A DNA stretch of 64,000 nt from Eledone cirrhosa (taxonomy: Eukaryota): the NCBI GenBank assembly GCA_964016885.1, contig OZ024741.1, positions 97,402,001 to 97,466,000 on the forward strand, given 5' to 3'. Below the pieces are notes generated by a model. It was not told where the DNA came from, ran no database searches, and saw only the letters and a program-made list of their open reading frames with translations. A program made the position numbers and the translations under genes. Positions 10,171 to 47,280 of this stretch are shown in pieces (the stretch's first letter is position 1; each line of letters opens with the position of its first letter).

Positions 10171-11165
10171 TAAAGGGAAAAAATGAAACTAAATTTCATT
10201 TCTCACTCTTAGAACGGCTGTTACTTAAATATAAGTTTGTATACGTACATACATATATGTATACAGACGTACAGTAGTATGTATATATATATATATACAT
10301 ACATGCACACATATATATATATGTACGTATGGATTCACCGAACATTTATTATAATGCTCGGTGTGTTTGTAAACAAACATCCCGAATTAAGCCGTACAGT
10401 GTCTAGCAACCATCGTTGCTCATTTGTACAACACTGACAAAGGAACGCTGTACCAGTTTCAAGCTTATTATCTTATCGTCAGCAACGTATAACTTCCTGC
10501 CAGATGGTTGAACGTCTGAAAGTATTTACTTTCCTTATGCATATTAACGGCTGAGCAGCCTAATTTGCATATCGAGTGAGTTAATCGGCCGGGGTACCGA
10601 AAACACACCGAGCATTATAATAAATGTTCCGTGAAACCATACGTACATATATATATATGTGTACATGTATGTATATATATATACATACTACTATATGTCT
10701 GTATACATATATGTATGTACGTATACATACTTATATTTAAGTAACAGCCGTACTAAGAGTGAGAAATGAAATTTCGTTTCATTTTTTCCTTTTATCGTTT
10801 TCGGTACCCCGGCCGATTAACTCACTCGATATACAAATTAGCCTGCTCAGCGGTTAATATGCAAAGGAAAGTAAATAATTTCAGACGTTCAACCATCTGG
10901 CAGGAAGGTATACGTTGCTGACGATAGCTAATAAGCTTGAAACTAGTACAGTGTTCCTTTGTCAGTGTTGAACAAATGATCAACGGTGGTTGCTAAATAT
11001 TGTAAGGCTTAATTCGGGATGTTTGTTTACAAACACACCGAGCATTATAATAAATGTTCGGTGAATCCATACGTACATATATATGTGTGCATGTATTTAT
11101 ATATATATATACATACTACTGTACGTCTGTATACATATATGCATGTACGTATACATACTTATATA
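10171..11165. mobile_element. Family B hammerhead-bearing repeat (~430-bp unit): one copy plus ~1.3 inverted, circularly permuted copies
   Basis: 10171-10604 is the reverse complement of sequence in 10601-11165. The right part repeats AAACACACCG at 10601 and 11031. The junction shares AAAC microhomology. Confidence 0.85.
10913..10953 (+). ncRNA. Minimal type I hammerhead ribozyme (family B); mirror copy 10446-10487 on minus
   Basis: CGTTG-CTGACGA-T-AGC TAATAA GCT-T-GAAA-CTAG-TA|CAGTG; stem III palindrome ACTAGT; GUA cleavage triplet. Confidence 0.85.
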
Positions 11166-11289
11166 TATATACATATATATATATATATACATGTGTGTAT
11201 GTGTGTGTTTATGTGTGTGTGTGCGTGTGTGTGCGTGTGTGTGGGCACGCGTGTGTGTGTGTGTGTATAAACGTGTATCTGGTACCACC

Positions 11290-11600
11290 AGCCTCAGAGC
11301 GACGGGCCACTATGCTCTTCCATCATTCCCTCTCTGGGAAGGTTTGATGACAAGACTCAGCCGTGTGGCTTTGGTTCTTCAAAGCCCCTCATTGTTGGTT
11401 ATCTTGTTTTGTCCAGGATCTTTCGGAGGCATCTTTGTTGGAAAGTATCATGCTGTTCTTTAGTTATGACGATATTCTTCAATATGCCAAATGCATATGT
11501 TACTATTGACTTAATACTTGACCAGAATAAATTCTATTTCTTTTTTGATGTTAGGTTCTTTGATTGCCATATTGATTGTGGTTCGTTGAAGACTACCCTT
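11290..11600 (-). mobile_element. RTE-like LINE fragment (post-RT thumb region)
   Basis: Minus translation FNEPQSIWQSKNL...SIVTYA...FQQRCLRKIL matches the IWxSxxL...F...CLRxIL pattern. Confidence 0.65.
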
Positions 11601-12882
11601 GAAATATATATAATAGAATAATTATGGTCTTATAAATATAGTTTCCATTTATTTAATATCATTGAATATTTACTCCGGAAATCTGTCGGGTGCTTTGAAT
11701 CAGATAACTGATATATATATATATTGTGTGTGTGACTTTGTCTAATTTATATATATATACCCTTTGAATTTAATATATACTCCCGTAAGGTTTAGTAAAA
11801 CTTTAGGCATTATTCGGCTATGATTTCTTGCAACAATCCTACTCGCCGACAGGCACCAATCACAAACTTTATACCTTGAGCACTGGCCACGTGATGGTTC
11901 TTAACTATTTTGGTAACATTTATGTGCATGTTTTCTTCTAACTTCAATTTTGTAACTAATTCCGTCTAGTTAACTATTTGTCTAGTCAATTTCTACAGGC
12001 TAGGAGAAATACTAGGTAAGTGTCATATAGCTGTACATCGCGGAAAAGAATATGTATCATTTATCTATTATTTCTTCATAAGTACATATTAAACTTATAG
12101 CCTCGTTTAAAGGATTTTTTGTGTGGTTAATTTATACTGATTGGGAGAGAAAATGCTGTATATACTTTCTCTAATGATTCTTTGGACTTACATATATATA
12201 TATATATATATATATATATATATATATATATATATATATATATATATATATATATATATATGATTCTTTGGACTTACATATATATATATATATATATATA
12301 TATATATATATATATAATGCCAATCATTGTAAATTTGAATCAGACATACAAAAAGATATATATATATATGAATTAAATAAGCCCAAATCATAGTAAATTC
12401 AAATATCACAAAAAGAAGGAAAGAAAGCGGTGGGGGGAATGATTTGCATCAGAAATGAAACATGGATTACAGGTTAAAATATAGTCTAGTTAGACGTGAA
12501 ACAAAACGAGGATGTAGTTTATGGAACACTCAAATGATTTAGAAGTCGACCTTAAGTAGGAACAAAGAACATTAAGGAAGACATGAACGGTACTTTGCTT
12601 TGAAAATTTGGAAAGTAGGTTTAAAAGTATGAATTTTCATAAGAATTTAGTAGTTGTCACTGTCGCGTAGCGGCAAGTACTAGAGACGTTGGTGATCCTT
12701 GGGTTCAAACTTGTTCAAGAAGTGCATGTAAACTTTTTCAGTTTTTATTTTACAACCCATAGAACAAAACTGAGAGGGTTTACTGGAAACCCTACTCCCG
12801 ACCAGAATCGAACTTCAGAACATGATCATATATATATATATATATATATATATATATATATATATATATATATATATATATA

Positions 12883-12925
12883 GTACTAGAACTGATTCAT
12901 TCGGTAGAAATCATCAGGAAGCCCG
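12883..12925 (-). ncRNA. Degenerate family C hammerhead next to (TA)n
   Basis: Minus strand GCTTC-CTGATGA-TTTC TACC GAAT-GAATCAGTTC; homologous to 37005-37059. Confidence 0.55.
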
Positions 12926-13039
12926 GATTTCTGCATCTTTTATATCTACATAGTTAATTCATTTGGCCATCAATGTTTATCTCTGAATGACAAACGGTCA
13001 AAAATACAAATATAAATATATATATATAGTCTAGCAATT

Positions 13040-45390: not shown

Positions 45391-45399
45391 GTAACTACA

Positions 45400-45530
45400 A
45401 GGTCAGCAATTTGGCGAGAGGCGAAAGTCAATTATATCGACCCCAGTGCATTACTGGTACTTTATTTTATCGACCCCGTAAGGATGAAAGGAAGAGCTAA
45501 TCTCGAGAGGATTTTAACTGAGAACGTAAA
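45400..45530 (-). mobile_element. SINE copy (long subfamily)
   Basis: TCGACCCCAGTGCATTACTGGTACTTTATTTTATCGACCCCGTAAGGATGAAAGG. Confidence 0.8.
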
Positions 45531-45532
45531 GG

Positions 45533-45765
45533 GTCATCACTCTATGGTGCAAAGCATGTTGTCCAACTCTCATCATTTTCCATGCTTGCAAGGGTGTGGC
45601 GGGTCCTATTCAGCAGAGCATCACTCCACTTGTCACGGTTCTTCGTCATCTCCACCGTTAGCTTCAGCGATCTGAGGTCTGCTCTCACCACCTCCGCCCA
45701 TGTTTTTCGTGGTCTTCCTCTACTACGTCTTCCTTCAACTGGCATTTCTTGGCACTTCTTCACTA
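45533..45765 (-). mobile_element. RTE LINE 3' end fragment
   Basis: KKCQEMPVEGRRSRGRPRKTWAEVVRADL...DKW is a typical RTE C-terminus. Confidence 0.85.
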
Positions 45766-46670
45766 TATCTAGATGAATATAGAAAGTTTCTCAGACGGAC
45801 AGATAATATAAAAATAGACCGTTGATTGTACACACACACACGCACAGGCACACACATACACACACACACACACACACACACACACACACATACACACACA
45901 CACACACTCATACATATACATGCATATATTTTTTCTTCTTCTTCGCCCACCTATTCCTGAGAGGGTCATGGGGCGGAGTCCTTAAACACTCCTTCCAGGG
46001 GGGTTCTGTCAGAAGCAACCGTCTCTAACTGATCCGGCTTGATCCCCAAGCATGACCAACCAATCTCATGGATGGTATCCAACCATCACACGAGGGATCT
46101 ACCCCCAGGTCTCTCACAGGTTGGTTTTGTCCGGAAAGTCTGTCCAGCGATTCTTTTCTGAGACATTCTAACCACATGCTCATATTATCGGAGTAGTAAT
46201 CTCTCAATTTGGAGAAGTAGCGGTTCTATCTTGAGTGATTCTGATATCCGAGTTACACATGTTTCTAGAATAATATTACTTCAAAGACCCTTCGGAAGAA
46301 TCCCATTTCGGTCGCTTGTATTCTTGATCGTATAATTTCATTACCCACATACCTGCATATTATGAATCAAAACATTAAATCTTCCCAATTTATTTTAATT
46401 TTTCATAGCATTGATAGAAAATAGTGTATGAAATTGTAAGCAATGCCAAACGAACAACAATATAATCAACAAAATGTTAACGGTAGAAACAACGTATAGC
46501 ATGAGAGTAACTAAACCTTTAAGCTAAAATGTGAGTTAAAGATTTGCATATTAAACTATTAGCAAGAAAATCCTTTGCCAAATGTTCCATTAACATATAG
46601 AATGTACCATGGGATATACATACCCACCATATATATATATATATATATATATATATATATATATATATAT

Positions 46671-47280
46671 ATCAAGATAAGCAGAACAAGCAAAATTCAA
46701 CCCATTTTTCAAAATAAATCAAAATTAATTTACAATTAACATTAATCAAAATTAAAAAGTATAATATAAATATTTACCTATTCAGATAGCCCTTACTGTA
46801 CAGTTTCACTTTGCAAAGCATTAGATATCACATTGATATTAATGGAAAAACAAAGATCATCAGAGAAGCATTTTCCTTTCCTAGGGTTAAAAACCTCAGG
46901 AACGATAAAATATATGACCTCGTCCCCAACTGACACGAGTCTAAAGGTCGTAAAAGTGACCCGTATGTTCGCTGGTGTGAAGTGAAGGCGGGAAATCGCA
47001 GACTTGTTGTCTATAGTCGCCACTAAAAAAATAGCAGCTAGATAGAACGACAGATTTGTTCTCTACATAACGGAGAATATGAATAAAGTTAATATATCTG
47101 AGGGTACAAGGTACCCCCAGAAATACATAGGTTGTCTATGATTCAAGGTAGTTCTATGGTAATAATTTGATATACCAGAACTTAATATCAAGATAAGCAG
47201 AACAAGCAAATTCAACCACTTTTTCAAAATAAATCAAAATTAATTTACAATTAAAATTAATCAAAATTAAAAATTATAAT
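46671..47280 (-). mobile_element. Family G: ~1.2-mer of a 516-bp unit with hammerhead at 46789-46869, between (TA)n tracts
   Basis: ~95-bp direct repeat at 46671 and 47187; minus: TTCT-CTGATGA-T-CTTTG..CATTA ATATCA ATG TGATAT C TAATG..CAAAG-T-GAAA-CTGTACAG-TA|AGGG. Confidence 0.88.

What the first reader, a model, noticed from the sequence alone, without database searches (positions are those of the whole stretch)
10913..46869. Nearly every hammerhead has a different self-complementary stem III
Seen: ACTAGT (10942, family B), ACTAATTAGT (558-bp unit), AGTACT (40428), ACAATTGT (40731), ACTGTACAGT (46795), ATATGTAT (~ATACGTAT, 23689), ATATATATAT (~16326). Known: minimal type I hammerheads with palindromic stem III cleave as dimers from tandem transcripts. 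Inference: cleavage needs multimeric RNA, and the palindrome may act as a family-specific pairing code that stops cross-family dimerisation.
Basis: partly seen in the sequence, partly recalled or inferred. Interest (0 to 1): 0.7.

Follow-up and report, generated by a model that had tools for sequence, protein, structure and literature searches.

The report
Penelope hammerhead palindromes, no family code
The self-complementary third stems are real and fit a published design in which these small RNA motifs of jumping genes likely cut themselves only in pairs, but several families share the same palindrome and some large families lack one, so the palindrome alone is unlikely to be a family pairing code.

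Summary
All seven cited palindromes are present, each at the stem III position of a type I hammerhead motif (three on the minus strand); 18 of 20 parsed window copies are self-complementary. They differ per family, not per copy, and three cited words belong to one superfamily. The motifs end Penelope-like elements (superfamily A lies 3' of Hydra-type RT/endonuclease genes) and tandem retrozyme-like repeats (about 430 and 558 bp units), with 5,900-63,000 genome matches per family. Self-pairing looks selected: AUAUGUAU (G-U) is 33 of 100 listed copies, its mismatched mirror AUACAUAU 66 of 63,098. That fits the published dimer model. The 'code' fails as stated. In a dimer stem I also swaps between partners and already separates families. 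ACAAUUGU, AUAUAUAU and ACUAGU are each shared across different stem I arms. A 19,000-copy family has a mismatched centre. Only 3 of 210 family pairs are told apart by stem III alone. Cleavage and expression are untested. The scan reached the same verdict before on other DNA of this genome.

The parts
10912..10954 (+). Family B hammerhead; stem III ACTAGT 10942-10947, predicted cut after 10948; U-U at base of stem II; in an inverted insertion of about 430-bp units (10170-11167)
   Evidence: 25,113 genome pattern matches
10445..10488 (-). Family B copy in the inverted arm; stem III ACTGGT (G-U)
39435..39477 (-). Family B, other stem I subfamily (CGGTG/CATCG); same ACTAGT; only 2+2 in-register stem I pairs with the 10918 copy
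23649..23707 (+). Superfamily A hammerhead, stem III ATATGTAT 23689-23696; right arm of a short inverted insertion
   Evidence: 63,098 genome matches
23482..23538 (-). Superfamily A, left arm; stem III ATATGTAT
16317..16384 (-). Superfamily A damaged copy: GGA instead of GAA, stem III ATATATATAT (2 nt longer than relatives)
50820..50827 (-). Superfamily A remnant, ATACGTAT, no intact CUGANGA core
23785..27536 (.). 558-bp tandem retrozyme-like array, 4 minus units then 3 plus units, over 99% identical; each with a hammerhead (51-nt stem II, stem III ACTAATTAGT; cores at 23932, 24490, 25048, 25606 minus and 26169, 26729, 27287 plus)
   Evidence: 9,051 genome matches
40402..40438 (+). AGTACT family hammerhead, stem III 40428-40433
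   Evidence: 5,873 genome matches
40286..40322 (-). AGTACT family, inverted twin
40722..40818 (-). ACAATTGT family hammerhead with core CCGAGGA (U4C), 62-nt stem II
46789..46869 (-). ACTGTACAGT family hammerhead, 49-nt stem II; relatives occur in tandems about 515 bp apart
35082..35171 (-).
   Evidence: core variant described in PMC4209133
23049..23092 (+). Hammerhead-family copy with non-palindromic stem III AGAACT, weak stem I
37006..37056 (+). Copy of the 16-nt stem-loop III family (not a plain palindrome); inverted twin 36926-36995; further remnants 34323-34406, 12853-12928
28510..28517 (-). Second, different family with ACAATTGT (stem I TGCT/AGCA type), core decayed
29728..30172 (-). Broken endonuclease-region relic of a Penelope-like ORF, about 1.2 kb 5' of the 28510 motif
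   Evidence: tblastn

Best explanation
These are minimal type I hammerhead motifs at the 3' repeats of Penelope-like elements and their short tandem derivatives, and their self-complementary stem III likely lets two copies fold into a double hammerhead that would cut both RNAs, with partner choice predicted to rest mainly on the two swapped stem I arms. Shown: motifs, copy numbers, link of two families to RT/endonuclease ORFs, tandem and inverted layout, covariation. Inferred: a 6-10 nt stem III is too weak as a hairpin, so cleavage would be limited to multimeric or paired RNA; double cleavage would release a unit-length RNA (558 nt for the array) that could be circularised and reverse-transcribed by an autonomous element. 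The palindrome likely changes slowly because one substitution makes two mismatches in a homodimer, leaving G-U steps as the open path. Different words therefore mark old lineages and are not a code kept distinct by selection.
For: Motif excess over shuffles. Fixed word within families: 95 of 100 listed ACTAGT, 95 of 100 ACTAATTAGT across very different stem II, 92 of 100 AGTACT, all counted by eye. Superfamily A, first 100 of 63,098: 43 ATGCGCAT, 33 ATATGTAT, 17 ATATATAT, 2 ATACGTAT, 5 single variants; ATACATAT 66 genome-wide. Family B stem I position 3 covaries (U-G 58, G-U 19, A-U 7, U-A 2, U-U 2 of 88) while 82 of 88 keep ACTAGT. Of 210 pairs among 21 family representatives, median heterodimer penalty is 16.2 kcal/mol from stem I and 12.1 from stem III; stem I alone discriminates in 10 pairs, stem III alone in 3, neither in 5. 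ACAATTGT in three stem I groups 9-18 kcal/mol apart. Endonuclease lineages 40-58% identical share stem I and ATAT[A/G]TAT. P0001 has RT and Hydra-clade motifs. Homodimer folding gives the inter-strand stem III at 0.93-0.98 for three long-palindrome copies. Literature: PMC4209133, PMC3088659 Fig. S8 legend, PMC7229834.
Against: No cleavage or RNA data. Short-construct homodimer folding gave inter-strand stem III probability 0.00-0.06 for 6 of 10 copies and 0.45 for one. In full tandem context the double hammerhead had probability 0.08 (558-bp array) and 0.01 (family B). Several families are rarely tandem (AGTACT 0 of 23 loci, AGAACT 0 of 38, A 8 of 58), so a cis partner is often absent. PMC11167929 found a PLE hammerhead needed protein and was dispensable for insertion in vitro. 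The ATATGTAT/ATACATAT asymmetry could come from few founders.
Confidence: 0.75

Rival explanations
1. The palindrome is a family-specific code, kept distinct by selection to stop cross-family dimers.
For: The six cited window families are predicted orthogonal at stem III (penalties 8-16 kcal/mol). In superfamily A the ATGCGCAT lineage shares stem I with sister lineages but differs at stem III (3 of 210 pairs).
Against: The same six are also orthogonal at stem I (7-21 kcal/mol). Identical palindromes among 14 representatives: 6 pairs against 0.7-1.2 for random palindromes (inflated by shared descent, but no sign of avoidance). Reuse of ACAATTGT, ATATATAT, ACTAGT. Distinct autonomous lineages are cross-compatible at both stems.
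Confidence: 0.1
2. The motifs fold as monomers in vivo, helped by the element's protein; the palindrome is just a short hairpin stem whose loop happens to extend it.
For: 7 of 19 clusters are not self-complementary, including AGAACT/AGGACT (0 of 100 listed are palindromes, 19,171 matches) and a 4-bp stem with 8-nt loop. Protein-assisted cleavage in PMC11167929. Weak predicted dimers for 6-nt words.
Against: A hairpin does not require the loop letters to be self-complementary, yet the central letters covary (GCGC, ACGT, ATAT, ATGT). Dimer constructs cleave better than monomers in PMC4209133 and PMC7229834.
Confidence: 0.1
3. The motifs no longer cleave; they are kept as protein-binding or priming structures, or are inert passengers.
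For: One family amplified with a U4C core (89 of first 100 of 261 matches); many lack G10.1-C11.1; hammerhead cleavage was dispensable for insertion in vitro (PMC11167929).
Against: Core letters and all three helices are kept across many diverged subfamilies; U4C is reported to retain enough activity in a viroid (PMC3088659 passage).
Confidence: 0.05

Closest known systems
Minimal and small-palindromic-helix-III hammerheads of metazoan PLE pseudo-LTRs (Cervera and De la Pena 2014, PMC4209133; first 20,000 of 32,700 characters read)
   Same: Type I topology, short palindromic helix III, long variable helix II, many families per genome, opposite-strand pairs 100-700 bp apart, U3-A8 core variant, proposed dimer activity.
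   Different: Here stem III is 6-10 nt rather than the 4-nt minimum; G10.1-C11.1 is replaced by U-U or C-A in most window families; one family fixes U4C.
Dimer-cleaving small hammerheads of Penelope-like retrotransposons (Lunse, Weinberg, Breaker; PMC5785218, not held; seen only as cited in PMC6765202 and PMC6466107 passages)
   Same: Short palindromic stem III, tandem layout, dimer cleavage.
   Different: Could not check whether it tested mixed dimers or lists these words.
Metazoan non-LTR retrozymes (PMC7229834, passages; bioRxiv 10.64898/2026.07.22.740005, first 20,000 of 40,384 characters)
   Same: Non-coding tandem units with one type I hammerhead each; axolotl motifs with palindromic loop or U-U at stem II base cleave better as dimers; PLE origin.
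   Different: Units of about 430-560 bp; loop 1-loop 2 contacts, circular RNA and expression not shown here.
Hydra clade of Penelope-like elements (Craig et al. 2021, PMC8557442; section 11 and passages)
   Same: P0001 upstream of superfamily A has DKT, CxCX5C, CxxC and CxH motifs, C-terminal endonuclease region, (TA)n targets, inverted 5'-truncated layout.
   Different: RWK reads RWT; no clade-level tree was built.

Membership tests
Type I hammerhead (minimal PLE type) | Core C3UGANGA9 ... G12AAA15.1 ... U16.1 H17 in type I order | tested here: met
   17 of 20 parsed copies canonical; one U4C, one U3-A8, one A13G
Type I hammerhead (minimal PLE type) | Stems I and II with covariation | tested here: met
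   stem I weak at 23054 and 37012
Type I hammerhead (minimal PLE type) | Short palindromic helix III | tested here: met
   18 of 20 window copies; 43 of 86 in genome sample
Type I hammerhead (minimal PLE type) | G10.1-C11.1 closing pair | tested here: not met
   G-C in the 23659 family; U-U or C-A in B, AGTACT, 558-bp, 46863, 40810
Type I hammerhead (minimal PLE type) | Self-cleavage, better as dimer | not testable with these tools
   folding only, mixed result
Rfam hammerhead models | Match at gathering score | tested here: not met
   0 matches; none among the 150 of 242 rows shown at E<=5
Penelope-like element 3' repeat | Motif lies 3' of an RT plus GIY-YIG ORF | tested here: met
   Superfamily A: 18 endonuclease-region hits 0.8-2.0 kb upstream; AGAACT family 17 of 39 hits near an ORF, mostly 200-300 nt 3' of it. 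Not found for B, 558-bp, AGTACT
Penelope-like element 3' repeat | Inverted 5'-truncated arrangement, (TA)n targets | tested here: met
   67 divergent against 6 convergent neighbour pairs (loci overlap and 13 were picked as inverted pairs); (TA)n 43-283 nt 3' of the cut site in 13 of 13 copies
Hydra PLE clade | RWK, DKT, CxCX5C, CxxC, CxH motifs | tested here: inconclusive
   4 of 5 exact, RWT for RWK, read by eye in P0001; no tree with references
Non-LTR retrozyme | Tandem non-coding units each with a type I hammerhead | tested here: met
   558-bp array; family B tandem in 23 of 71 loci at 420-500 bp
Non-LTR retrozyme | Expressed circular monomer RNA | not testable with these tools
   no RNA holder listed

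The most novel reading that the evidence does not exclude
Because most copies are solo or inverted, dimers form in trans between separate RNAs, and stem I plus stem III together act as a kin-recognition address. Sister Hydra-type lineages that share both would cut each other's RNA, and the abundant AUGCGCAU lineage escaped this by two compensatory changes in its palindrome: reproductive isolation between jumping-gene lineages written in four RNA letters.
Probability: 0.1. Interest if true: 0.6.

Novelty: new member of a known kind. Interest (0 to 1): 0.2.

Why it matters
As it stands it adds a dense, many-family example of a design in print since 2011-2014, with a clear count showing selection for RNA self-pairing (G-U kept, C-A not). 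It also gives natural matched sets (same stem I with different stem III, and the reverse) for testing what sets partner choice in double hammerheads. If trans pairing and lineage escape were shown, it would be a new form of interaction between transposon families.

Tried and rejected
Rfam gave no hammerhead match. Run search for the 558-bp unit: no RNA holder listed; laying on 4 contig runs gave 0 records in two RNA-guess runs and cover in two runs of unknown kind; no evidence on expression either way. No Penelope ORF link for family B, the 558-bp unit or AGTACT; of 19 window ORFs scanned, 3 matched LINE-type RT or endonuclease families. Constrained cofolding crashed and was replaced by clamped duplex energies. 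15 single-copy clusters were left out of the 210-pair matrix. The random-palindrome null ignores shared descent, so it is used only to say there is no avoidance. Lunse et al. is not held. Searches for a published mixed-dimer or code test showed none in their listings; one search returned 0 papers. The one supplement read (PMC3088659 Fig. S8) came out garbled, so its legend is what I rely on; supplements of PMC4209133 and PMC8557442 were not read and may list these words.

Full report
Observation. The window lies in a 3.0-Gb animal genome and is rich in microsatellites and mobile repeats. A descriptor that does not ask for a palindrome finds 14 motifs in the window against 0-1 in each of 30 shuffles. 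With core variants and weaker copies I parse 20 copies in 9 families: 15 perfect palindromes, 3 with G-U, 2 not self-complementary. The words differ by family, not by copy. ATATGTAT, ATACGTAT and ATATATATAT share one stem I and are one superfamily (A); the 16326 copy has GGA for GAA and two extra letters against its relatives.

What the elements are. Exact-pattern counts in the genome are 25,113 for family B, 63,098 for superfamily A, 9,051 for the 558-bp type, 5,873 for AGTACT and 19,171 for an AGAACT family, with 0 in each reversed control. Superfamily A lies 0.8-2.0 kb 3' of endonuclease regions of Penelope-like ORFs (18 cases); one such ORF (P0001, 821 aa) shows DKT, CxCX5C, CxxC and CxH motifs given for the Hydra clade. 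The AGAACT family mostly lies 200-300 nt 3' of a GIY-YIG ORF. Family B, the 558-bp unit and the 46863 family occur as non-coding tandems, like retrozymes. Neighbouring opposite-strand copies are divergent in 67 cases and convergent in 6 (a biased set), the inverted layout described for these elements (PMC8557442 passages).

Is self-pairing selected? Likely. The word is fixed within families: 95 of 100, 95 of 100 and 92 of 100 listed matches for B, 558-bp and AGTACT (counted by eye). In superfamily A the first 100 matches are 43 ATGCGCAT, 33 ATATGTAT, 17 ATATATAT, 2 ATACGTAT and 5 single variants, while ATACATAT, the mirror image that cannot pair in RNA, has 66 matches genome-wide. Founder effects could contribute. 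It is not universal: in 1.2 Mb of evenly spaced stretches 36 of 86 motifs are perfect and 43 of 86 pair with G-U, and 0 of 100 listed AGAACT-family copies are palindromes.

Mechanism. In the double hammerhead (established model; PMC4209133 Fig. 1 legend, PMC6466107 passages) the two stem III words pair antiparallel, so by topology each core takes its 5' stem I arm from one copy and its cut site and 3' arm from the other. Folding support is mixed. Monomer 15.1-16.1 pairing is at most 0.20 in 10 of 10 copies; the inter-strand helix reaches 0.93-0.98 in three copies, 0.45 in one and 0.06 or less in six. In full tandem context it is 0.08 and 0.01. Protein help is reported for one such ribozyme (PMC11167929 passages). 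No RNA data were obtainable.

The code idea. A mixed dimer must satisfy stem III and both stem I helices. Among 21 representatives (19 clusters with 2 or more copies plus two window motifs; 15 singletons left out), 210 pairs have a median penalty of 16.2 kcal/mol from stem I and 12.1 from stem III. At a 2 kcal/mol cut, stem I alone separates 10 pairs, stem III alone 3, neither 5. ACAATTGT is carried by three stem I groups 9-18 kcal/mol apart, two of them in this window (40731 and the decayed 28510). ATATATAT and ACTAGT are also each found with different stem I arms. In family B, stem I position 3 covaries while 82 of 88 copies keep ACTAGT, and the window's two subfamilies form only 2+2 stem I pairs with each other against 6+6 with themselves. 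In the 558-bp type stem II changes freely under a fixed palindrome. Endonuclease lineages only 40-58% identical share stem I and ATAT[A/G]TAT. So the palindrome is the slow part and marks old lineages.

Against what is known. Palindromic stem III and dimer folding of repeat-borne hammerheads are in PMC3088659 (passages, Fig. S8 legend), PMC4209133 (parts 1-2 of 4) and PMC6765202 (passages citing Lunse et al., not held); dimer gain for axolotl retrozymes is in PMC7229834 (passages). My searches listed no test of mixed dimers. Earlier notes of this scan on other windows reach the same verdict; I saw them after my own tests and they are not independent support.

Verdict. A real feature and new members of a known kind; dimer dependence likely, family code unlikely. 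Interest 0.2.

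Noticed in passing
window 40722-40818 (-): The family core reads CCGAGGA (U4C) in 89 of the first 100 of 261 genome matches, while sister families keep CUGA: a lineage that amplified with a weakened-core variant.
   Followed up: partly
window 35082-35171 (-): U3-A8 core hammerhead family with ACTACGTAGT, 6 copies in 1.2 Mb, one relative reading ACTGTGCAGT.
   Followed up: partly
window 23049-23092 (+): Relatives vary between AGAACT, AGATCT and AGATTT at stem III, linking the mismatched word to a palindrome.
   Followed up: partly
L316:2456 and 2892 (+): Two different ACAATTGT families 436 bp apart on one strand: a natural cis neighbour pair with the same palindrome and incompatible stem I.
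   Followed up: no
window 23482-23760 and 23785-27536; 39148-40543: Families nest in or beside each other's (TA)n flanks: the 558-bp array abuts the superfamily A insertion, and an AGTACT insertion replaces the 3' part of a family B copy at 40249.
   Followed up: no
window 59925-63863 (-), 54990-55430 (-): LINE-type reverse transcriptase and endonuclease fragments.
   Followed up: no
window 32024-32939, 8920-9150, 9888-10119, 45392-45763, 49078-49476, 58187-58325: A very abundant repeat of about 189 bp, tandem at 32172-32943, without a hammerhead core by my scan.
   Followed up: no
G000, and 72 notes: Other notes report scrambled-order hammerheads in this genome; I did not scan this window for them.
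   Followed up: no
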